A stretch of DNA of 64,000 nucleotides from a virus (lineage: Duplodnaviria > Heunggongvirae > Uroviricota > Caudoviricetes): IMG/VR virus record IMGVR_UViG_3300014208_000001, positions 101,318 through 165,317 of that record; one strand, written 5' to 3'. The position numbers and the translations under genes were made by a program. Positions within the stretch are counted from its first letter, which is position 1, and each line of letters starts with the position of its first letter. The notes below the pieces were generated by a model. The model was not told where the DNA came from and made no database searches. It was given only the letters and a program-made list of their open reading frames with translations. Shown here piece after piece: positions 6,277-62,656 of this stretch.

Positions 6277-7968
6277 TCACCATACAAATACATAATCTAT
6301 CTCGCCATTTATTTGAATAACAATTGGGATAATAGAATTCGGTTTATATTTGGCTTCTAAATATTCTCTATTATGCTTACGAACAAATGCGACTATATGA
6401 TTAGCATATTTTTTATACTCATTTAATATATCAATATTAGTACTAAATGCGTCCATAGCAATCATTAAATCATATTTATCAGTTGTGGTTTCATCAAACC
6501 ATTCATAATTTAATCCAATAAATTCAGCAAAACCATTATCGATCGCTTTATTTAAAGCGTGTGATTTTTTAGCAACATATTTAATATTTAATAAAGAACA
6601 TGCCAATGCTTTTGAACCATATCCAGGAGATAAATCAAGAACTGATTTTACTCTCAAATTTTTAAATAAAGCAGCATAAAACGTTGGTATTATTATTTTT
6701 GGGCCACATACAGACGTTAACTCTTTTACTATATTTGTATAAGTAATATCTTCATTGCCTTCAAACAATTTATTTAATACTTTTCTAAATCTTATAGGTC
6801 TACGAATATATCTCCATAATCTACTCATATCAAAATAGTGAAATATAATATTTTTATAGTGCTTTAAAATAGCTTGAGATGTTGGTTTAGATACAAACTT
6901 TTTATCCCTATAATGTTTAGATAAATCAAAATGTCGTAACTCTTCTAAATCTTTTAATAATATTTCTTGTGGGTATTCTGGATTCATCCAGCCACGTTGA
7001 ATTATATGATTCATTATAGAGTGTAACGCCAATCTCAATTCTATCATTGTACTATTATTAAGATCTTTACGACTTATCATAACCATTGATTTATATTGAT
7101 TATCAAAATTAATATCATATACATTACCATATTGGTATCTGACTTGTGGCACATTTGTGATTATACTATCTTCTGGTGTCATTATCCTTTTTGCTCTGGT
7201 TGATCTTCCATATTCTATTTTATCGAAGTAATAAGATTCTATAGATGGATAAAATCTATCTAATGGGCTTTTATAGCGTACTGTCACGCATCTATCAGTG
7301 ATTATTATACTTTCTATAATATTATATGATTTTAATTTGTGAGCTAATGCTATTACCCACGGTTTTGATATAATGTTGCCGCGATGGCTATCTGTGCATA
7401 ATCTAACTGGTATTTTATGTTTTAATAACCATTTATTAAATGTTGGTCTTGATATTTTGGCTAATGTTGCACATGCTCTAGTGCTTAGACGCTTTTTAAC
7501 ATAATGATAATAACACCACTTAAATGATGAACATGGATTATCATATGGTATTTTGCCTATTTTTACTTTTTTGCGGCGTAATAAGTTAACTATTGCTTGT
7601 TTTGATACTTTTGCCGCACTTGCTAAACTATACAATGACCAATATTGAAGATTTTCATCTAACCATTCTTTAGTGCGCCAATTAGATGGCAATTCTGCTA
7701 ATACTATTTTATTTGTTTTTGGTGGTGACCATTTATCTGTTTTAGGTTTTAAATATCCACTTGATATTTTTATTTCACGCAGAGCAAAATATTCAACACC
7801 AGCTAATTGTGCTTGTGTTGATGGTGACATAAATTTTGTGTTATCAAACCATTGTAATAATTTTTTTGTATCTGATATACCAGGGTATGGATATTGAGAT
7901 TTTAATATATTATGCTCTGCTAGTAATCTTAATTTTTCTCTTTCATATTCATCATCAATCTGAGTCAT
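6277..7968 (-). CDS. HTH-repeat protein with a degenerate DNA methyltransferase-like C-terminal domain
   Basis: HTH YYHYVKKRLSTRACATLAKISRPTFNKWLLKHKIPVR; SAM motif VLDLSPGYGSK; aligns by eye with 60500..62656 but has no SPPY/DPPY. Confidence 0.65.
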   Translation of the reverse strand: MTQIDDEYEREKLRLLAEHNILKSQYPYPGISDTKKLLQWFDNTKFMSPSTQAQLAGVEYFALREIKISSGYLKPKTDKWSPPKTNKIVLAELPSNWRTKEWLDENLQYWSLYSLASAAKVSKQAIVNLLRRKKVKIGKIPYDNPCSSFKWCYYHYVKKRLSTRACATLAKISRPTFNKWLLKHKIPVRLCTDSHRGNIISKPWVIALAHKLKSYNIIESIIITDRCVTVRYKSPLDRFYPSIESYYFDKIEYGRSTRAKRIMTPEDSIITNVPQVRYQYGNVYDINFDNQYKSMVMISRKDLNNSTMIELRLALHSIMNHIIQRGWMNPEYPQEILLKDLEELRHFDLSKHYRDKKFVSKPTSQAILKHYKNIIFHYFDMSRLWRYIRRPIRFRKVLNKLFEGNEDITYTNIVKELTSVCGPKIIIPTFYAALFKNLRVKSVLDLSPGYGSKALACSLLNIKYVAKKSHALNKAIDNGFAEFIGLNYEWFDETTTDKYDLMIAMDAFSTNIDILNEYKKYANHIVAFVRKHNREYLEAKYKPNSIIPIVIQINGEIDYVFVW

Positions 7969-8194: not shown

Positions 8195-8541
8195 TTTTTT
8201 CTCCTTGGTTTGTTGTATACATCATTAGCAAGTATCATTTTATCACACATGTTACAATATTGATCATATAAATCATATAATGCGTCTGTGAAATTAGCCG
8301 CATCAGTTAATGGGGCTATTTTTGGTATTATCATACCATTTTTTATAGTGTGAGTACAATCTTTTGCGATTTGGGCGGCTTCATCTTCTGATTGGCACAA
8401 TCCTCCAAAATAGATCCCACCAATCGATATTCCTTTTTGTTTGTCATCCAAAATTTTGGCGTATGTTACTATCCATTGCATTTTATTATCCTTATTTGCC
8501 GCTTGACCCAAAACCGCTCTGACCTCGTATGTTGTATTCAT
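8191..8541 (-). CDS. Hypothetical protein (116 aa)
   Basis: Overlapping-operon spacing; protein-like composition. Confidence 0.7.
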   Translation of the reverse strand: MNTTYEVRAVLGQAANKDNKMQWIVTYAKILDDKQKGISIGGIYFGGLCQSEDEAAQIAKDCTHTIKNGMIIPKIAPLTDAANFTDALYDLYDQYCNMCDKMILANDVYNKPRRKN

Positions 8542-9115
8542 CTGAAAATTCTGTTACAACTTTGATATCAAATGATTCTTGCTTATGGGGTATAATTTGT
8601 GCTATCCTATCGCCAGTAGAAATCGAATACGTTTGTGATGTATGATTAAATAGTGTCACTAATAAATGTCCTGTATAGGTACTATCAATAATTCCTCTGA
8701 ATGGTTCTATTCCTTTTACTCCTAAACTAGAACGACCTTCTATAGTATAATACCAACCTATTGGCGCTGATATTGCTATGCCTGTGTCTATAGTTACCAT
8801 ACCGTGTTCTGGTACAATAGCGTCCATTATCGAAAATATATCATATCCTATGTCTTGCTTGCGTTTTTTAAATGGTAATTTCGCTAAATCATTTAATAAT
8901 TTACATTCAAATAATATATTTTTAACTGAATCGGCTTGTTCATTATCATAGCATACCATACAATTGTAGCAAATGTCTCCATTAGGATTATTAGTATCAC
9001 AATAATGCCTCATAAATTCATTTAAACAGTCATCGCATTGTACATAAACTAATGCGGCTGAATTTTTATCTGATAAATCGACTCCAAGTTTTTCATTACG
9101 TTCGGTAAGTAACAT
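8492..9115 (-). CDS. dut: Trimeric dUTPase with a Cys-rich N-terminal extension
   Basis: Motifs GYDI, GRSSLG, GIIDSTYTG, GDRIAQ and RGQSGFGSSG; start uncertain. Confidence 0.93.
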   Translation of the reverse strand: MLLTERNEKLGVDLSDKNSAALVYVQCDDCLNEFMRHYCDTNNPNGDICYNCMVCYDNEQADSVKNILFECKLLNDLAKLPFKKRKQDIGYDIFSIMDAIVPEHGMVTIDTGIAISAPIGWYYTIEGRSSLGVKGIEPFRGIIDSTYTGHLLVTLFNHTSQTYSISTGDRIAQIIPHKQESFDIKVVTEFSDEYNIRGQSGFGSSGK

Positions 9116-9419
9116 GACTATTCCTGAAAAAGTAACAAACTGGCGTTATCGATGCATGGATGCAAACATGGACATGAAGGAAGGTGTAGCATACGGCACA
9201 TTTATCGAAATCGCAATATCATTAAAAAAACGTGGCTTTGATTTGGTCGATTTGGTTGAGATCGATAAAGCCGAATACGATAAATTAAAAAACATAAGTA
9301 TCAAATTCACACAATCAATGCAATTAATGAAAAAAGCACGCCAAAGAAACAAAAGAATAATTTCAAAAGCCAAAATCGTATCAACATGGTATTCTATATT
9401 AAAAAATATTATCTTCTAA
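9114..9419 (+). CDS. Hypothetical protein (101 aa)
   Basis: Fills the gap between dut and tmk on the opposite strand; its start overlaps the dut ORF start. Confidence 0.45.
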   Translation: MTIPEKVTNWRYRCMDANMDMKEGVAYGTFIEIAISLKKRGFDLVDLVEIDKAEYDKLKNISIKFTQSMQLMKKARQRNKRIISKAKIVSTWYSILKNIIF

Positions 9420-10088
9420 ATCAGAAACCATATCACCAATTATCGAATCGATCCCATTAGAGCTATCTATATATTTAATATCAGAAAAATTAACACATTC
9501 TGAAATTAAAGAAGTAATCATATCTGGACAATCAACTTTCATATTACTAGGAGTTAATATATTAGAATAAATATTTTCAATAATTTTAAAAAACGATTCA
9601 GGTTTAGAATCAAAATGATCATCGATATTACGCTCTTTAATACGAGATTTTAATATTGCAGTATCACACGATACTATATATAACCTATCGATTTTGGGAG
9701 CCGGATATAACGCTAATAATCTATTTATATCTTGTATTTTAACTCCTGATGCTATCCCGTAAACAATTGATGATATGTATGATGATCTATCAGAAATAAC
9801 ATGTATACCATTTTCTATCGCTGGTTCTAATATTTGCTTATTAAATGATATAGTATCAACCATGTATAATATTTGCCTAGATAATTCATCTATCTCTATA
9901 TTTTGATCTATTAATTTAGGTGTTTTGACTAATTTTCGTAAGTGTTGCCCTAATGGTGTACTGCCTGGTTGTCTTGATGTTATTATTTTATAGCCATGCT
10001 TTGATAATTCATGATCTAAACATTTTGATAGTGTTGTTTTGCCTGAACCATCGATACCTTCCAACACCACATACTTACCAATGTTCAT
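9399..10088 (-). CDS. tmk: Thymidylate (dTMP) kinase
   Basis: P-loop VVLEGIDGSGKTT, RQPGSTPLG and the SDR motif. Confidence 0.92.
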   Translation of the reverse strand: MNIGKYVVLEGIDGSGKTTLSKCLDHELSKHGYKIITSRQPGSTPLGQHLRKLVKTPKLIDQNIEIDELSRQILYMVDTISFNKQILEPAIENGIHVISDRSSYISSIVYGIASGVKIQDINRLLALYPAPKIDRLYIVSCDTAILKSRIKERNIDDHFDSKPESFFKIIENIYSNILTPSNMKVDCPDMITSLISECVNFSDIKYIDSSNGIDSIIGDMVSDLEDNIF

Positions 10089-10097
10089 TGATTACCT

Positions 10098-11765
10098 TTA
10101 CCGTTTAAAAACGAATTTTAGTTTTTTACCGCCATGTACTTTACGCATCATATGCTTTTCAGCATATTCATATTCACGCATATTTAAATTTATTGCTTTA
10201 TTATACAATGTTTTCTTATGCATAACCCAACCATTTTCAGATATATACCAATATGATGGCTTAGAATACCCATCAAATACAAAATTACTAGCTTTATATA
10301 CTCCACCATTGTGATTAAATGTCTGATCAGCATATGATATTATATATTTAACATTGTTACTAAGCATTTTAATACACTTGCTTATAAATCTACTGCCAAA
10401 ATTCTTTTTTTGATATTTTGGATGAATACATAATCTCGATAAATCTACTGAGTTTGAGTATGTGAAATCATGATATGTTTTTATAGTTATATTTTGCCTC
10501 GGTAATGGTGAAAATATACATACAGCTATTAATTTATTATCTAAATATGCTCCATATGCTTGACCACCACGACCAGCATTCATTAAGTAATGATAAGCTT
10601 GTAAAAAATATTTATATTCAGACGCCGGGCACTTTTTGACAATGATATCATTAAATTCAAAATCGACTTGATCATATTTATTGCCAGTCCATAATTTTAT
10701 CAAATCACTAATACAATTATATGATGCAAATTGATGTTCCCATAAATATTTTATTTCATACGTATCTGACATATATGTATTAATATACTCAGCTTTTGCA
10801 TTATCGGCAACAATTTTGTGCGGTAAAGAATGAATCCATTCTCCCTGGCATTCTATTAGAATATTTTTGGCACCTTTTATTACGCAGTCAAATGTCCATG
10901 GGCCAACTATACATTTATCGCTATCATTTATTTCACCATAATATTCTATATTTAGATCATCTAATATTTGATATAAAATCCTCTGTAAATTAGATACTCT
11001 TGGCAATTTGCTATATGCTATTGATAGTTTTGAAATATAATCAGGTGATTTTTGTATTTTTCGCATTAATTCTTTATGTTCAGTTGTGTTTTTAGCATTC
11101 AATACTTTATTTCTATATTCTTCATTCTGCCATAATTCTTTAGATAATTTAGATATTTTATTACGGAATTCATCAGTTTTATATATTTTACGTAACTCAT
11201 CTGTCCACATATTTTTAGCATTTATAGATCTTATCCTTTTACATTCATCGCTATTTAATTTTGTTATAACTTTTTGTCTGAATTCTTCATTTAGCCATAA
11301 CTTTTTGCATTTTTCAGATCTAGATCCATTAGATAAATGTATAATATCAATCATCTTATTTCTAAATTCTGCATTTTGCCATTTATCCTTTGATAATTTA
11401 GATAATAATTTAATATTATTTGGCGAATTAAAAATATTAATCATTTTATTATAATATTCTATATCAGTCCATCTATTCTTCATTGAATTTGATATGGCAT
11501 TTTTATGATTTGTAGTTAATTTTCTACCTATCAATTTACTCGGTTTACGTTTTATTTGATTTCTATTTTTTCTATATTGCTCATCAGCCCATTTGTTTTT
11601 TATAGCACAACTAGAACATTTCCAATTTGTATAATCTCTACTCGGTATACGTTTGATAATACGTTTATTACCACAGTCACACAATACTTCAATATCTTGT
11701 AATTTACTAGCCATTATTTTGCGCGCGGATTCTTCGGAATTACATATAATACATGATCGCTCCAT
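10098..11765 (-). CDS. Fusion: Zn finger/NUMOD3-like repeats + PD-(D/E)xK nuclease + Mom-like GNAT domain
   Basis: CxxC pairs; six K..W...E(F/Y)R.K repeats; FDCVI...ILIECQGEWIH; C-terminal DLSRLCIHP...IISYADQTFNHNGGVYKASNF. Confidence 0.75.
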   Translation of the reverse strand: MERSCIICNSEESARKIMASKLQDIEVLCDCGNKRIIKRIPSRDYTNWKCSSCAIKNKWADEQYRKNRNQIKRKPSKLIGRKLTTNHKNAISNSMKNRWTDIEYYNKMINIFNSPNNIKLLSKLSKDKWQNAEFRNKMIDIIHLSNGSRSEKCKKLWLNEEFRQKVITKLNSDECKRIRSINAKNMWTDELRKIYKTDEFRNKISKLSKELWQNEEYRNKVLNAKNTTEHKELMRKIQKSPDYISKLSIAYSKLPRVSNLQRILYQILDDLNIEYYGEINDSDKCIVGPWTFDCVIKGAKNILIECQGEWIHSLPHKIVADNAKAEYINTYMSDTYEIKYLWEHQFASYNCISDLIKLWTGNKYDQVDFEFNDIIVKKCPASEYKYFLQAYHYLMNAGRGGQAYGAYLDNKLIAVCIFSPLPRQNITIKTYHDFTYSNSVDLSRLCIHPKYQKKNFGSRFISKCIKMLSNNVKYIISYADQTFNHNGGVYKASNFVFDGYSKPSYWYISENGWVMHKKTLYNKAINLNMREYEYAEKHMMRKVHGGKKLKFVFKR

Positions 11766-12109
11766 TCAGTTTCTAAAAATAGAGCATCACCTCTAGCAAA
11801 TTCTAAATCTCTTTTTAATAGTTCAACAGATTTCAAAAGCAACTCTAACGAAACCCGATATCTTATGACGTCATGGTATTGACTTTTCAATGACGAAATC
11901 AACTCTTGAATACGCGCAGAAAGAGAAATAGTTTTCTTTATAGCATCACCACTAGTAATAAAATATTCTAATGGATTTATTGATGGGATACCGCTCGGCA
12001 AGCCAAATTCATGTGGCTCTATATGTCTAACATATTTCTCCAATTTCAGAATATATATATCAGCTTGAACGCCATCACCTATAATCTGATAATCCATAAC
12101 ATTCTCCAT
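11714..12109 (-). CDS. Hypothetical protein (131 aa)
   Basis: Operon context. Confidence 0.65.
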   Translation of the reverse strand: MENVMDYQIIGDGVQADIYILKLEKYVRHIEPHEFGLPSGIPSINPLEYFITSGDAIKKTISLSARIQELISSLKSQYHDVIRYRVSLELLLKSVELLKRDLEFARGDALFLETEWSDHVLYVIPKNPRAK

Positions 12110-14291: not shown

Positions 14292-16451
14292 TTAGCCAAT
14301 TAATTTGACGTGTTCTTTCTTCCCATCATTGAAAACGGCTTCCAATTTGACTTTGGATTTTGGATTAGCTGTTTTCATTTCAATTATTTTGGCAGCCGCC
14401 GCTTTAATTGATGGGAATGGCTTTGATCTCTTAACTGTCGTGCCTTCTCTTAACACGGCTGAGATCGTGACATTATATTTTTTGCCGCCTAGTGTTTTAG
14501 CATTGCTCTTAATAGATTCTGATATAGCTCTAGCTGCCTTTTGGATATTTTCACTCATTGAACCTGGACCACCTTTGACTGTTGGTGTTTTGTCCACGTC
14601 GTTCTTTGGGTGTCTTTTGAGCAAACTGCCTCCTTGCAATTCGCTCATTTCTGCTTTGTTGCTACCAGCAACATTTTTAGTACTTTTAGATTGTAAGCCT
14701 GTCCCGCCAACATTATCCATCGCTTCTGATTCAGTCACTGTTGGCTGAAAATCTGGATATCGTCTAGAAATTGCAATGACTGCTTTCTTCGCGCTTTCAG
14801 TGCATTCTCTGAGATCGATAACGCCAACATATGTGTCCCAAGCATGAGTCAATGCGTCTGCGACATCTCTATTAGTATATCCAGCGCTCGACTCTAAAAT
14901 TCCTTTTGCTGATCGCAAGAATTTATTAACACTTTCGAATCTATTCATTTCTGGGCGGTTATTTGGGCGACCACGACCCATCTCTGGGCGACCACGACCC
15001 ATCTCTGGGCGACCACCCATCTCTGGTTTGGCTAGATTTGAGCCAAGTTCGCCAAAATCATTATGGACATCATTGCCCATATCGTCATCAGACATCCCAA
15101 ACTCTGGGTTGTATTCGACATCACCTTCGCCAAATTCACCCTCACCGAATTCATCGCCACCGAATTCATCGCCACCAAATTCATCGTCGCCAAATTCACC
15201 GCCGAATTCATCACCGCCTTCACCAAATTCGTCATCGTGCATACCAAGATCTAAATCATCGCCCATACCACGATCAATACCACCACCAAAATCATGGCCA
15301 CCCATACGATTATGACTCATCCCATAATCATCGTGGCCCAAATCTTCAGCTATCATATTGACAGCGCTTTTAACGCTTTCACAATGCATTCCATCATCGC
15401 AATCATCATCACTCTCTGACGTGTCGGTTTCTTCATCATCTGTAGCCTTCTCCCAAGGTTTAGATGATTCAACCAACGTCTTGACCCAATAGACACCATT
15501 GGAATCATGCATTTCATGAAAAACGAACTGTTGATTCGCATTCAACAGGTGTAGCAATTCATTATCACCAATATTAACAACATATCCATTAGCACCGCAA
15601 ATGTGCTTAAATTCTTCAGTTGTAACACAATCAGCGATTCTAGCATATGAATCGAACATAGCTTGCATGCTTGGCATGCCTTTAACACCACTAGCTATAT
15701 CCAATCGTGACCAATTTTCTTTCACATCTCCAGCGTGAACTTCAGCTCCTTGTAAGGAATTACCAAATTCCTCAAAAGTGCCACCATCATTATGAGGTTT
15801 AGATGGCCAGTCATGACCAACTTTATCTAAGTGACCATCTGCAGCTTTACTTGGTTTACTTTGGTGTACACCCTGTGGCTTATGTTCGACACCATCTTCG
15901 TCGACATCGCACATTGCTGGTGTTTCTGTATGCTTACGTGGCCATTGCTTGCCAGCTTGGCTCATAGTACTATCAGCTTTATACTTCATTTGCTTAGCTG
16001 ATTTATCAGATATTGGCGTGCCTTTTGGCTTATCAACGGCGTTATTCTCGCGGATGTTTTTCGTCATTTTTCTTTTCTTTTTAATTGGCTGAAAAACGCC
16101 AGCACCTATTGCTATGCCACCAGTACCACAGACATCTTCGTCCATATGGTCAAATTCACCGTCATTACTCAATGTATATTTGTCTTGAGTAGGAGAATTT
16201 TCCATTGCCTTGTTAGGACCATGTAATTGCTTACCCATATTATTTTCCGAGTTATCTTGTAATGGAATAGATTCCCTATTATTAATTTCAACCTTACTAT
16301 CATCTGGCTGTGGTAATTCACAACTATTATCAACTGGATTTATCTTATTAAATAACGTATCGCTATCTAATTGATTCGGAAATACACTAGGTCTAGCTGA
16401 GATCGCTATTCCACCCTCACATAAATTAATAATATACTCATCCAACGTCAT
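14292..16451 (-). CDS. Low-complexity probable prohead core/scaffold-like protein
   Basis: 719 aa with acidic Gly-rich repeats and many hydrophobic-x-E|(S/N/G/D) sites. Confidence 0.5.
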   Translation of the reverse strand: MTLDEYIINLCEGGIAISARPSVFPNQLDSDTLFNKINPVDNSCELPQPDDSKVEINNRESIPLQDNSENNMGKQLHGPNKAMENSPTQDKYTLSNDGEFDHMDEDVCGTGGIAIGAGVFQPIKKKRKMTKNIRENNAVDKPKGTPISDKSAKQMKYKADSTMSQAGKQWPRKHTETPAMCDVDEDGVEHKPQGVHQSKPSKAADGHLDKVGHDWPSKPHNDGGTFEEFGNSLQGAEVHAGDVKENWSRLDIASGVKGMPSMQAMFDSYARIADCVTTEEFKHICGANGYVVNIGDNELLHLLNANQQFVFHEMHDSNGVYWVKTLVESSKPWEKATDDEETDTSESDDDCDDGMHCESVKSAVNMIAEDLGHDDYGMSHNRMGGHDFGGGIDRGMGDDLDLGMHDDEFGEGGDEFGGEFGDDEFGGDEFGGDEFGEGEFGEGDVEYNPEFGMSDDDMGNDVHNDFGELGSNLAKPEMGGRPEMGRGRPEMGRGRPNNRPEMNRFESVNKFLRSAKGILESSAGYTNRDVADALTHAWDTYVGVIDLRECTESAKKAVIAISRRYPDFQPTVTESEAMDNVGGTGLQSKSTKNVAGSNKAEMSELQGGSLLKRHPKNDVDKTPTVKGGPGSMSENIQKAARAISESIKSNAKTLGGKKYNVTISAVLREGTTVKRSKPFPSIKAAAAKIIEMKTANPKSKVKLEAVFNDGKKEHVKLIG
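14965..15240 (-). repeat. Coding repeats: 21-bp (PEMGRGR) and about 15-bp (GGDEF) units
   Basis: GGGCGACCACGACCCATCTCT units at about 14965-15025; AATTCATCGCCACC-like units at about 15125-15240. Confidence 0.9.
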
Positions 16452-59951: not shown

Positions 59952-60503
59952 TTAATATATGATCGATGAAAATATTGAGAATATTGAGATAATGATACAT
60001 ATTATTACTATTAATATTTTATGACAATCAGATAACTTACTAAAGTAACACAACAATTTATCAAATAGTAACTTAAAAATTACATATATATCACAATAAA
60101 AGCAATAAAATGGATTAGCATATATCTCAGTCATTTTTACCGCATCATTGATATTATCCATTAATTTATTATATTCTTCTTTAGTGGTCGGTTCACTCTT
60201 AGTGTACCATTTGAGGTCATTTCTGTAATCTTCAAAGTCTTTCCTACATTTATTACTTATCATAGCGCAATTCGAAAGTATCTTATCAGATAATTCGAAT
60301 ATTTTATTTACTTTCAATTGGTCTACTGATGTTCGATCAATAGATCTATATAAATCATCGATTATTTGAATATCTCTTCTGATTTCAAGAATTATTTCAT
60401 ATTTTTTATGATAGTAATAAAGTATACCAATTATGAAAGCGCCAAATACCTCCGATGATATAATAACATCGATGATCTTCATAATAGCATCAATAATTAT
60501 CAA
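59952..60503 (-). CDS. Membrane-anchored hypothetical protein
   Basis: N- and C-terminal hydrophobic helices. Confidence 0.6.
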   Translation of the reverse strand: MIIIDAIMKIIDVIISSEVFGAFIIGILYYYHKKYEIILEIRRDIQIIDDLYRSIDRTSVDQLKVNKIFELSDKILSNCAMISNKCRKDFEDYRNDLKWYTKSEPTTKEEYNKLMDNINDAVKMTEIYANPFYCFYCDIYVIFKLLFDKLLCYFSKLSDCHKILIVIICIIISIFSIFSSIIY

Positions 60504-62656
60504 CTGTGCTTCCTGTAAACGACAATGGGTTCAAATGTTTTTTCTCTTTTACCAGCGACTGACGCTGTTTTCATCTCTAAAATTTCACCTACATAATACG
60601 AATGCCTTTCAGCTATATCATTACATTGCTTTACAAGCCGCTTAGGAATATTCAAAATTACTAATTTACAACCACTACCAAAAATATTTTCAACAATAGG
60701 AGCAGTTATTGTCTTACTAGAATCTATACCATAATATAATTCAGTGCTGTCATACGGTGGCGATGTAAAAATTAAATCACATTCAGGAAATTTAACCATA
60801 GAAGAATCATCACAATAAAATTCTGGCTCTATCGATACATTATTCTTCATAAATACACGCATATTTTTAATAGAATCAACAGATGATCGATTCAAATCAT
60901 ACCCAATATATTTAATATTAATTAAATCATTAGCACCAAGAAACCTACCACCCCACCCTGAACACGGGTCAACAACTACTCCCCCGTTAGGGAGATATTT
61001 TTGATAAACATGCCTAGCAACCCATGGTTTGAATATTGATATAAATTTAAAATCTTGAACATGTTTAGAAATATATCCAACTAATGTAAAAATATTCATA
61101 ATTTTCTTATTATTCCATAAATAATCAATAGAATCTCGCAATACAGTTTGCCTACCAATTTCCCACGCATCTGGAACAGCACAGTATCCATTATGTTTAG
61201 AATACCAAAAATGTTCAAAAAAATATTTGGTAATAATCGATGGCGCATTATTAGAAATATTAGCATTAAGCGCATCATTACCACATTTAAATAAATTTAA
61301 CATAACATTATATAATTCGATTTTAGTATGTTTAGGTGGCTTAAATCCATACTTTACAATCCATTGATAGCATTCATTAGAATCTTTAAACCACAATTTC
61401 CAATTATCCAAATAATAAATATCATTGTCATTAATATTACGATCCCATTCGCCATTCGGCGTCCACACAATAATATCAACATTATTAGCTTTAGCGACTA
61501 GAAATTGTTTAATCATTCTCCTACGCTCTTTACAATCATTATATAAAACACTTTTCGGTTTTACTTCATAATACTTATTATCTATTAGAAAATCAATGAC
61601 AGCATATGAGTAATTAGAATTCATTTTTATGTTTTTAGATATCGATTTATACTCTCCAAAATTATCAATAAAATATTGTTCTAATAAACTATCTAGTCTA
61701 ATCCCATGCTTTGTGCTCTTAATACCATGCGATCTATCAATTATTAATTGCATATATTCATCTTTAGTTCTAGCCGGAATTTTATGACGTCTAAGATGAT
61801 ATACAACAGTACCCAAAGCGGCATTGGCTAAATCAGCAATATGCCTTAAAGATGCTTTTTGAGTAATATATAAATCATATAATTCATGTTTATTATTTAA
61901 TAGTGGAGATTTAGAACCAACAACCATACCACCTGGTTTATTTATTTTAAATCCAATTCTGCGCAATTTACGCATAATAACAGAATACGGTACACCAGTA
62001 ATCATAGCGATCTTAGAAGGTCTCAACAACTGCACACATAATATATCATATTTGATATCTTTATAAACTACATAATATTTTGATGATAACCCAAATTTTC
62101 TAATGGCACTAGTTACAGTAGAACGCTTAACGCCAAGTTCTATAGCTATTTTACCAGCCGATTTAGTATCTAATTCGATTTCAAGTCTACTTTTGTCATT
62201 CAATAATGACGGCCTGACCGCCTCATCATGAGTTCTAAAAACAATATCTGGCTTGATTCTTTTTAAAAATCTCTTTACATGGGCATGATTAGTGTTATAT
62301 CTATTTGCAATAGAATGAATACCAACACCACTATCATATTCATATAAAACACTATCAGGCAAATCAATATTTGAATTATTAGTAGCAAGTGATATTATAT
62401 TATTCTTTTTAGCAACTTTTGATACAGCAGCTAACGTATGCCCATACTTTCTATGATATTCACTAAATGACATACCATTAGCGACTTCTTCAGCTAATAA
62501 TTTGACATCTATCCTATTTTTAGCTCTTGTCGATGAATACCCTAATTCTTTGGCCAACGTGCTAACTCTAGCTCTGCTTATACCAAGTATATCCTTTATT
62601 TCTTCATGCTTCATATTCTGATCTAATAATTCTTTTAATTTCGCTTTGTCAACCAC
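60500..62656 (-). CDS. Fusion: HTH repeats + PD-(D/E)xK nuclease + amino-methyltransferase
   Basis: Multiple HTHs; LEQYF...DFLIDNKYYEVKP; VVDPCSGWGGR (motif I) and IFTSPPY (motif IV). Confidence 0.8.
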   Translation of the reverse strand: MVDKAKLKELLDQNMKHEEIKDILGISRARVSTLAKELGYSSTRAKNRIDVKLLAEEVANGMSFSEYHRKYGHTLAAVSKVAKKNNIISLATNNSNIDLPDSVLYEYDSGVGIHSIANRYNTNHAHVKRFLKRIKPDIVFRTHDEAVRPSLLNDKSRLEIELDTKSAGKIAIELGVKRSTVTSAIRKFGLSSKYYVVYKDIKYDILCVQLLRPSKIAMITGVPYSVIMRKLRRIGFKINKPGGMVVGSKSPLLNNKHELYDLYITQKASLRHIADLANAALGTVVYHLRRHKIPARTKDEYMQLIIDRSHGIKSTKHGIRLDSLLEQYFIDNFGEYKSISKNIKMNSNYSYAVIDFLIDNKYYEVKPKSVLYNDCKERRRMIKQFLVAKANNVDIIVWTPNGEWDRNINDNDIYYLDNWKLWFKDSNECYQWIVKYGFKPPKHTKIELYNVMLNLFKCGNDALNANISNNAPSIITKYFFEHFWYSKHNGYCAVPDAWEIGRQTVLRDSIDYLWNNKKIMNIFTLVGYISKHVQDFKFISIFKPWVARHVYQKYLPNGGVVVDPCSGWGGRFLGANDLINIKYIGYDLNRSSVDSIKNMRVFMKNNVSIEPEFYCDDSSMVKFPECDLIFTSPPYDSTELYYGIDSSKTITAPIVENIFGSGCKLVILNIPKRLVKQCNDIAERHSYYVGEILEMKTASVAGKREKTFEPIVVYRKHS

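What the first reader, a model, noticed from the sequence alone, without database searches (positions are those of the whole stretch)
10098..11765. Homing-endonuclease-like protein fused to a Mom-like DNA-modifying GNAT domain
One polypeptide joins Zn-finger/NUMOD3-like DNA-binding repeats (six K..W...E(F/Y)R.K units), a DUF559/Vsr-like PD-(D/E)xK core (FDC...ILIECQGEWIH) and a C-terminal domain carrying the Mom-family signature (LSRL...ISYAD...H.GGVYKASNF). Phage Mu Mom is a GNAT-fold enzyme that makes N6-acetamido-adenine. Inference: a self-contained cut-and-protect element using acyl modification instead of methylation. With the nuclease-MTase at 60500 and the paralogue at 6277, this suggests a family in which mobile-endonuclease scaffolds carry swappable DNA-modification domains. 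It sits directly beside tmk and dut.
Basis: partly seen in the sequence, partly recalled or inferred. Interest (0 to 1): 0.75.

Follow-up and report, generated by a model that had tools for sequence, protein, structure and literature searches.

The report
Mobile phage endonuclease fused to Mom
A jumbo-phage gene fuses a homing-type DNA-cutting domain to a Mom-type DNA adenine-modifying domain and behaves as a single-gene mobile insert; the fusion is real, but the architecture and its cut-and-protect reading were already published, and no member has been tested.

Summary
Window 10098-11765 (-) is one ORF, most likely 538 aa starting at the ATG at 11714. It has three parts:
- a Zn-ribbon plus six helical W-repeats;
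- a Vsr-like 'EDxHD' endonuclease domain (best structural match I-Bth0305I, Z 12.3);
- a true Mom-family GNAT domain (Pfam E 5.5e-25; best structural match Mu Mom).

Both catalytic residue sets are near-invariant in about 260 relatives.

It is one of five divergent copies in a complete 356-kb groundwater phage genome. Closely related phages carry the same site empty: 1,583 bp against 71 bp, with flanks 80-87% identical. Others hold a Dam adenine methyltransferase there. The gene therefore behaves like a free-standing homing-endonuclease gene.

- NUMOD3 homology is unsupported.
- The ORF at 6277 is not a paralogue.

The cut-and-protect idea is plausible but untested. Iyer et al. 2021 already published it for jumbo-phage REase-Mom fusions, and Taylor et al. 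2011 had placed Hef-type endonucleases in the EDxHD family.

Verdict: new member of a known kind, moderate interest. Earlier notes of this scan had flagged two sister copies in the same genome.

The parts
10098..11765 (-). Whole ORF as given (555 aa, P0001). The probable real CDS is 10098-11714 (538 aa, start at M18).
11598..11702 (-). Zn-ribbon (residues 22-56; C29, C31, C50, C53): two beta-hairpins modelled at pLDDT 92-96.
11100..11597 (-). Six helical W-x3-E-(F/Y)-R-x-K repeats (residues 57-222), the presumed DNA-binding arm. No known family; NUMOD3 homology not supported.
10680..11003 (-). Vsr-like EDxHD endonuclease domain (residues 255-362). Catalytic candidates: D293, E305, Q307, H312, D321.
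10101..10670 (-). Mom-family GNAT domain (residues 366-555). H392, Y393, R444, S458, D480, Y490 correspond to Mu H58, Y59, R111, S124, D149, Y159. H485 is also conserved. A helix-helix insertion spans residues 517-537.
11714..12109 (-). Upstream gene 'up131' (131 aa, unknown function), forming the left border of the insertion site. Its TAA stop overlaps the ATG of M18.
9399..10088 (-). Thymidylate kinase (tmk), forming the right border of the insertion site, 9 nt after the stop codon of the fusion gene.
8492..9115 (-). dUTPase (dut) with an N-terminal Cys-rich extension of about 70 aa; part of the conserved flank.

Best explanation
SHOWN. The gene encodes a three-part protein:
(i) a Zn-ribbon plus six helical W-repeats;
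(ii) a Vsr-like 'EDxHD' endonuclease domain of the kind found in the intron homing endonuclease I-Bth0305I and in phage Hef-type homing endonucleases, with the catalytic set D293/E305/Q307/H312/D321;
(iii) a bona fide Mom-family GNAT domain that keeps the equivalents of Mu Mom H58, Y59, R111, S124, D149 and Y159.

It is one of five divergent paralogues in a complete 356-kb phage genome. At the population level it is a precise single-ORF insert between an upstream gene and tmk: present in some close relatives, absent in others.

INFERRED. It is a free-standing, homing-type mobile endonuclease gene working on a cut-and-protect logic. The N-terminal arm docks the protein on a long target. The Vsr-like domain cuts DNA that lacks the mark, such as naive alleles of co-infecting relatives or other foreign DNA. 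The Mom domain flips out an adenine in or near that target on the carrier genome and acylates its N6. By analogy with Mu this would be a glycyl group from the host's Gly-tRNA(Gly), rearranged to carbamoylmethyl. The carrier would thereby be immune.
For: Domains: Mom; I-Bth0305I/Vsr fold.

Literature: Taylor 2011 (PMC3239194) places Hef-type phage endonucleases in the EDxHD family and names the catalytic residues that map onto D293/Q307/H312/D321 plus the extra acidic residue E305.

Both active sites are under selection:
- invariant in 58 close relatives;
- invariant in all five paralogues;
- strictly intact together in 169 of 199 further cluster representatives, with most exceptions conservative E-to-D or S-to-T changes.

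Mobility:
- five copies, 27-37% identical to each other, with different N-terminal modules;
- the site is empty in L013, L014, L017 and L018;
- L030 (occupied) and L018 (empty), from the same metagenome, have flanks 80-87% identical, with 1,583 bp against 71 bp;
- homology breaks exactly at the upstream stop codon and resumes at the tmk ribosome-binding site;
- L007 against L014 shows the same single-gene indel.

Module and site go together: all six homologues of at least 46% identity that share this N-terminal arm lie at this locus, while a 41% homologue lies elsewhere.

Other points:
- Copy c4 lies among Rad50-like, XPD-like and Mre11-like genes.
- Cultured-phage Hef-like proteins have the same nuclease-plus-GNAT core and are multi-copy.
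- Mu Mom modifies dsDNA using Gly-tRNA(Gly) (PMC13219725).
- Iyer et al. 2021 made the same functional prediction.
Against: - No member of this fusion family has been tested, so cleavage, modification and their coupling are all inference.
- Mu R151, essential in Mu, is Thr here; the Mu dimer residue W48 and W181 are not conserved. Stand-alone Mom-like proteins also lack R151, so the chemistry or the acyl donor may differ from Mu.
- The gene is as conserved between syntenic relatives (47-50%) as tmk (44%) and dut (50-55%). That fits long retention of a useful gene as well as it fits a selfish element.
- A Dam methyltransferase occupies the same slot in L015 and L016. The junction may therefore be a general accessory-gene hotspot rather than a homing target.
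- The indel could be a deletion rather than an insertion.
- The phage encodes no tRNA-Gly.
Confidence: 0.5

Rival explanations
1. It is a phage-beneficial single-chain 'restriction-momylation' weapon, as Iyer et al. predicted, not a selfish homing element. The nuclease would degrade host or superinfecting-phage DNA at many sites, while the Mom domain marks the phage's own genome. The five copies would give five specificities.
For: Published prediction (PMC7824862). The gene is as conserved as its housekeeping neighbours across syntenic relatives. The same slot carries a Dam adenine methyltransferase in L015 and L016, consistent with an anti-restriction or modification accessory locus. Both catalytic sets are conserved.
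Against: The clean single-ORF presence/absence between near relatives in one sample and the link between N-terminal module and genomic site are the classic pattern of free-standing homing endonuclease genes. The nuclease fold's nearest characterised relatives are homing enzymes with very long targets. The two readings are not mutually exclusive.
Confidence: 0.25
2. It is a plain Hef-type homing endonuclease in which the Mom-like domain no longer modifies DNA and serves only as a DNA-binding, base-flipping or dimerisation module.
For: Cultured-phage Hef-like proteins carry a degenerate Mom-like domain (Pfam 21.5 bits, below the cutoff; the Y59 equivalent and the conserved His are lost). Hef is named a homing endonuclease in the title of Sandegren et al. 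2005, as cited in PMC3296691. Mu R151 and W48 are not conserved here.
Against: Six Mu catalytic positions are conserved in 94-99% of about 260 diverse members (S458 counted with Thr: 98%). A purely structural role would not need this. The domain scores far above the Pfam Mom cutoff and shares the motif of stand-alone Mom-like proteins.
Confidence: 0.15
3. The GNAT domain is active on another substrate or with another group, for example a different acyl or aminoacyl donor, a different base, or a tRNA or protein target. The nuclease-modifier coupling would then not be target protection.
For: Thr replaces the essential Mu R151, and His replaces Mu R154, throughout this family and in stand-alone Mom-likes. 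The authors of PMC13219725 state that Mom's substrates could not be predicted from structure. Other GNATs acylate tRNA.
Against: The best sequence and structural match is Mu Mom itself. The helix-helix insertion that Mu Mom needs for activity, and which an AF3 model places at the DNA, is present. Fusion to a DNA nuclease and a DNA-binding arm argues for a DNA substrate.
Confidence: 0.1

Closest known systems
REase-Mom fusions of jumbo phages (Iyer, Anantharaman, Krishnan, Burroughs, Aravind 2021, Viruses 13:63, PMC7824862)
   Same: A Mom-family GNAT fused to a restriction-endonuclease-fold domain in a jumbo phage, with the same predicted logic: the nuclease restricts and momylation protects.
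   Different: That paper gives a one-paragraph prediction. It has no residue-level analysis, makes no link to the EDxHD/Hef homing family, and offers no evidence of mobility. This phage has no close cultured relative (capsid at most 36% identical).
EDxHD (Vsr-like) homing endonucleases: I-Bth0305I (PDB 3r3p; Taylor et al. 2011, PMC3239194) and phage Hef-type endonucleases
   Same: The nuclease fold (Z 12.3) and catalytic residues; a modular N-terminal DNA-binding arm; free-standing, multi-copy, sporadic distribution in large phages. Cultured-phage Hef-like proteins share the nuclease-plus-GNAT core (BLASTP E 5e-14).
   Different: I-Bth0305I is intron-encoded, has NUMOD/HTH motifs and has no GNAT domain. 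Q replaces N208 (Vsr H64). In this family the C-terminal domain is a full-scoring Mom with intact catalytic residues, whereas the cultured Hef-like example tested is degenerate.
Phage Mu Mom (PDB 8bv8; PMC13219725; PMC7261163)
   Same: GNAT fold with the helix-helix insertion. H58, Y59, R111, S124, D149 and Y159 are conserved. Best PDB match by both sequence and structure.
   Different: Mu Mom is a stand-alone 231-aa dimer with no nuclease. R151, W48 and W181 are not conserved here. Mu Mom has no appended DNA-binding arm and is expressed under Com control rather than inside an operon of nucleotide-metabolism genes.
Type IIG / IIC single-polypeptide restriction-modification enzymes such as MmeI (from my own knowledge, not tested here)
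   Same: It would work like them: one chain carries a PD-(D/E)xK-type nuclease, a modification domain and a shared specificity module.
   Different: The modifier is an acyl or aminoacyl transferase (GNAT), not a SAM-dependent methyltransferase, so this protein is not a member. The nuclease is of the Vsr subtype.

Membership tests
Mom family (Pfam PF25680; Mu Mom-type DNA adenine N6 modifier) | Scores above the curated family threshold | tested here: met
   88.6 bits against a cutoff of 27.1, E 5.5e-25; phrog_1384 E 2.5e-29
Mom family (Pfam PF25680; Mu Mom-type DNA adenine N6 modifier) | GNAT fold with a helix-helix insertion before the last strands (Mu residues 175-209, essential for activity) | tested here: met
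   8bv8 is the top Foldseek hit, E 3.5e-9, TM 0.60-0.63. The model has helices 517-526 and 531-537 between strands. The requirement comes from PMC13219725.
Mom family (Pfam PF25680; Mu Mom-type DNA adenine N6 modifier) | Residues shown to matter in Mu: R111, S124, D149 (essential) and H58, Y59, Y159 | tested here: met
   R444, S458, D480, H392, Y393 and Y490 are invariant or nearly so in 58 relatives, in all five paralogues and in 202 further members.
Mom family (Pfam PF25680; Mu Mom-type DNA adenine N6 modifier) | Mu R151 (essential), W48 (dimer) and W181 | tested here: not met
   T482, S382 and V514. Stand-alone Mom-like proteins of other phages also lack R151 and, like this protein, carry His at Mu position 154. 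This is therefore a Mu-specific feature rather than a family-defining one.
Mom family (Pfam PF25680; Mu Mom-type DNA adenine N6 modifier) | Forms N6-carbamoylmethyl-adenine in dsDNA using Gly-tRNA(Gly) | not testable with these tools
   Needs expression plus LC-MS. The phage has no tRNA-Gly of its own.
EDxHD / Vsr-like homing endonucleases (I-Bth0305I, Hef type) | Vsr-like nuclease fold | tested here: met
   3r3p Z 12.3, rmsd 2.7 A over 94 residues; 1cw0 Z 10.7; Foldseek TM 0.80; profile E 3e-4
EDxHD / Vsr-like homing endonucleases (I-Bth0305I, Hef type) | Catalytic D (Vsr D51), N/H (Vsr H64), H (Vsr H69), D (Vsr D97) and the extra conserved acidic residue | tested here: met
   D293, Q307, H312, D321 and E305, mapped with PMC3239194. 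Q307 is Q, N or H across the family.
EDxHD / Vsr-like homing endonucleases (I-Bth0305I, Hef type) | First E of the motif (I-Bth0305I E170 / Vsr E25) | tested here: inconclusive
   The structural alignment places it near the invariant S258/Q261. No conserved Glu could be assigned.
EDxHD / Vsr-like homing endonucleases (I-Bth0305I, Hef type) | Sporadic presence/absence at a fixed site between conserved genes | tested here: met
   Occupied in the window, L007-L010, L028-L030; empty in L013, L014, L017, L018; exact single-ORF indel
EDxHD / Vsr-like homing endonucleases (I-Bth0305I, Hef type) | Cleaves the empty allele and is copied into it (homing) | not testable with these tools
   Needs in vitro cleavage and mixed-infection crosses.
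NUMOD3 DNA-binding motif | Match to the Pfam PF07460 profile | tested here: not met
   E 3.3, no accepted stretch. The repeats match no named family.
Type IIG single-chain restriction-modification enzymes | SAM-dependent DNA methyltransferase domain | tested here: not met
   No methyltransferase domain; the modifier is a GNAT.

The most novel reading that the evidence does not exclude
This would be a homing endonuclease that secures immunity of its carrier genome by chemically marking the target adenine with its own fused Mom domain, rather than by disrupting or mutating its target. That would let the same scaffold be re-aimed by swapping the DNA-binding arm. It would explain five orthogonal copies in one genome and hundreds of arm variants in metagenomes. 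It would also provide naturally programmable, site-targeted DNA momylases.
Probability: 0.3. Interest if true: 0.7.

Novelty: new member of a known kind. Interest (0 to 1): 0.4.

Why it matters
No nuclease-Mom fusion has been characterised, although the family is large: 341 clusters at 50% identity score below 1e-30. Related Hef-like genes lie in 447 cultured-phage records.

Mom's chemistry, a tRNA-dependent glycyl transfer to adenine in dsDNA, was worked out only in 2023-2026. These proteins would be sequence-targeted versions of that enzyme tethered to a nuclease.

If the coupling is real, it is a restriction-modification logic built on acylation instead of methylation, carried by a selfish gene. 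It would be relevant to competition between phages and would be a possible source of site-specific DNA-acylating tools.

The new contributions here are modest:
- the residue-level case that both domains are active;
- the explicit link between Hef-type/EDxHD endonucleases and Mom;
- a clean occupied/empty allele pair that names a candidate target site.

Tried and rejected
- NUMOD3 homology of the repeats: Pfam E 3.3, rejected. The GerD and Med15 Pfam hits are repeat or compositional artefacts below their cutoffs.
- ESM Atlas search of residues 20-250: best scores 0.84, TM at most 0.31, nothing usable.
- ORF 6277-7968 as a paralogue: BLASTP E 1.9. Pfam, NCBIfam, PDB and PHROGs gave nothing for its C-terminal half.
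- The 718-aa protein at 60500: no PDB sequence hit; only weak methyltransferase hits. Its PD-(D/E)xK motif was seen by eye only.
- tmk as an anchor for related viral contigs found nothing; the 816-aa neighbour worked.
- Full-length Foldseek was swamped by GNAT hits, so the nuclease domain was modelled on its own.
- Sandegren 2005 (PMC1275590) and Iyer 2009 (PMC2995806) are not held. What is said of them rests on titles and on citations in other papers.
- No paper in the library links Hef-like with Mom-like, or a Vsr-type homing endonuclease with GNAT/Mom.
- Sequencing runs: no RNA holder listed, so expression was not assessed. No reads were laid.
- No complex prediction was run. Inter-domain geometry in the full model is unreliable (pTM 0.52).
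- One call failed on a frame slip and was re-sent.

Full report
WHAT IS THERE

The window lies in a complete virus record of 355,825 bp with direct terminal repeats. The capsid is T4-like but at most 36% identical to anything in the phage collection. The gene is found in groundwater and soil metagenomes.

At 10098-11765 on the minus strand there is a 555-aa ORF. The minus-strand sequence around 11714 reads AAATAATGGCT. The TAA stop of the upstream 131-aa gene therefore overlaps an ATG that is residue 18 of the ORF. The public gene call is 538 aa, and residues 1-19 are disordered in the model. The real protein most likely starts at 11714, translationally coupled to its upstream neighbour. Its stop codon lies 9 nt before the tmk start. 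Residue numbers below follow the 555-aa ORF.

DOMAINS

1. N-terminal arm. Residues 22-56 form a Zn-ribbon (C29, C31, C50, C53; Cys positions at least 90% conserved; two hairpins at pLDDT 92-96). Residues 57-222 carry six Trp-centred repeats (W59, W99, W129, W157, W187, W212). They are conserved in the family and modelled as helical hairpins. They match no named family. NUMOD3 scores E 3.3, and the Atlas search gave nothing reliable.

2. Nuclease domain, residues 255-362. Modelled alone (pLDDT 92), its best structural matches are:
- the I-Bth0305I homing-endonuclease catalytic domain 3r3p (Z 12.3, rmsd 2.7 A over 94 residues; Foldseek TM 0.80);
- E. coli Vsr (Z 10.7);
- a DUF559-like protein (Z 10.3).
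The family profile finds 3r3p by sequence (E 3e-4), and 44 of 58 relatives hit Pfam REase_MTES_1575. Taylor et al. 2011 defined the 'EDxHD' family on I-Bth0305I and explicitly included phage Hef-type homing endonucleases (PMC3239194). Their catalytic residues D196, N208, H213 and D222, plus an additional conserved acidic residue, correspond to D293, Q307, H312, D321 and E305 here.

3. Mom domain, residues 366-555. Pfam PF25680 scores E 5.5e-25, 88.6 bits against a cutoff of 27.1. PHROG 'Mom-like' scores E 2.5e-29. Mu Mom (8bv8) is the best PDB hit both by sequence and by structure. The model shows the helix-helix insertion that Mu Mom needs for activity.

ARE THE ACTIVE SITES INTACT?

The 2026 study of Mu Mom lists H58, Y59, R111, S124, D149, R151 and Y159 as active-site residues. 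R111, S124, D149 and R151 are essential. W48 is needed for dimerisation (PMC13219725).

In a family alignment, H392, Y393, R444, S458, D480 and Y490 occupy six of these positions in 57-58 of 58 relatives. R151 is Thr in 56 of 58, and W48 and W181 are not conserved. Three stand-alone Mom-like proteins of cultured phages also lack R151 and, like this protein, have His at Mu position 154. Mu is therefore the outlier at that point.

In 199 further, more distant members:
- 169 keep both the nuclease set and the Mom set strictly intact;
- most exceptions are E-to-D or S-to-T changes;
- individual positions are conserved at 93-99%.

All five paralogues of this genome keep all of these residues. Both domains therefore look enzymatically active and co-selected. 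This is inference from conservation, not a measurement.

HOW THE GENE BEHAVES

The genome has five copies of the nuclease-Mom core, 27-37% identical to each other. Their N-terminal modules differ: HTH-type in some, Zn-ribbon in others. One copy lies among Rad50-like, XPD-like helicase and Mre11-like genes.

The closest homologues of this copy (46-50% identical over the full length, with the same arm) lie at the same locus in six of six contigs examined: after the up131-like gene and beside tmk and dut. Two of the six differ in detail: tmk and dut are inverted in L029, and other genes stand in place of tmk in L028. A 41% homologue lies in a different context. Their divergence equals that of the neighbours (tmk 44%, dut 50-55%).

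Equally related genomes have the site empty. In L013, L014, L018 and L017 the up131-like gene and tmk are 2 to 225 nt apart.

The best pair is L030 (occupied) and L018 (empty), from the same metagenome. Their flanks are 80-87% identical, with 1,583 bp against 71 bp between them. Homology stops at the upstream stop codon and resumes at the tmk ribosome-binding site, and there are no flanking repeats. L007 against L014 shows the same pattern.

In L015 and L016 the same slot holds a Dam-class N6-adenine methyltransferase on the other strand (E 8e-34 and 1e-36). L015 has an additional 204-aa ORF of unknown function there.

INTERPRETATION

The gene has four properties typical of free-standing homing endonuclease genes of large phages: a fixed site, a single-ORF indel, many copies per genome, and an arm matched to its site. 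Its nuclease fold's nearest characterised relatives are homing enzymes.

The fused, apparently active Mom domain suggests that the carrier genome is protected by adenine acylation at or near the target. This is a cut-and-protect logic that works like a single-chain restriction-modification enzyme, but with a GNAT in place of a methyltransferase.

The main rival is a phage-beneficial restriction-momylation weapon. A non-catalytic Mom domain is unlikely given the conservation. A different substrate or donor cannot be excluded.

COMPARISON WITH WHAT IS KNOWN

Iyer et al. [quoted passage not shown] Taylor et al. 2011 placed Hef-type endonucleases in the Vsr-like EDxHD family.

The cultured-phage 'Hef-like homing endonucleases' have the same core of Zn-ribbons, a Vsr-like nuclease and a weak Mom-like domain. 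They occur in 447 phage records, often in several copies. PHROGs holds full-length families under 'homing endonuclease' labels.

I found no paper that joins the two threads, that is, Hef/EDxHD with Mom. I also found none that tests such a fusion. The finding is a new member of a known, predicted but uncharacterised kind.

- The ORF at 6277 is not a paralogue, and no catalytic domain was detected in it.
- The 718-aa protein at 60500 has HTH repeats and weak methyltransferase signals only.
- Earlier notes of this scan had flagged two of the sister copies and two inteins in this genome. That agrees with a genome rich in selfish elements.

Noticed in passing
L015:14375-15241 (+), L016:14879-15709 (+), and L015:15225-15839 (+): In two related phages the exact up131|tmk slot holds a Dam-class N6-adenine DNA methyltransferase on the opposite strand (Pfam E 8e-34 and 1e-36). 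L015 also has an adjacent 204-aa ORF with no family, a possible partner nuclease.
   Followed up: partly
window 6277-7968 (-): A 563-aa ORF of unknown function. It has full-length homologues (25-29% identity) directly upstream of the 816-aa gene in L012-L014 but is absent from L007, L010 and L015-L018. Only an HTH-like stretch (residues 95-197) matches phrog_8446, a family the 718-aa protein at 60500 also hits. It is another sporadic gene, not a paralogue of the fusion.
   Followed up: partly
window 60500-62656 (-): A 718-aa protein with several HTH repeats, phrog_12517 (unknown function, E 1.5e-12) and weak DNA-methyltransferase hits (PF01555 E 0.003; PHROGs about 0.006). DPCSGWGG and SPPY motifs and a D...EVK motif are visible by eye. 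It lies immediately downstream of the gene preceding the capsid gene.
   Followed up: partly
L010:10517-12007 (-) and L030:7325-8524 (-): A second Vsr+Mom gene lies in the variable spot between the dut cluster and the 816-aa gene. In it the Zn-ribbon-like segment maps after the Mom domain, at the C-terminal end, which suggests domain permutation within the family.
   Followed up: no
window 8492-9115 (-): The dUTPase has an N-terminal extension of about 70 aa, rich in Cys (CDDC...CYNC...C), that does not align with the 139-aa dUTPases of L007 and L009. L010 has a 276-aa form.
   Followed up: no
window 14292-16451 (-): A 719-aa protein with a long acidic low-complexity tract of D/E-F-G-G repeats and 'RPEMGRG' repeats. 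Function unknown.
   Followed up: no
G000:C1 7039-9212, 22815-22889, 44168-44249, 136245-136330: The phage encodes eight tRNAs (Gln, Thr, Leu, Lys, Arg, Met, and two Ser) but no tRNA-Gly, although it carries five Mom-domain genes.
   Followed up: yes
L028:5030-5991 (+): In one relative the position of tmk, just after the fusion gene, is taken by a 150-aa protein with a Tad5 domain (PF25190) and a 170-aa ORF.
   Followed up: no
L029:1-1004 (+): A 1,690-aa gene with intein and LAGLIDADG signatures lies near the fusion gene in a related contig. Together with the scan's notes of inteins in this genome's terminase and RNR genes, it shows that the lineage is rich in selfish elements.
   Followed up: no
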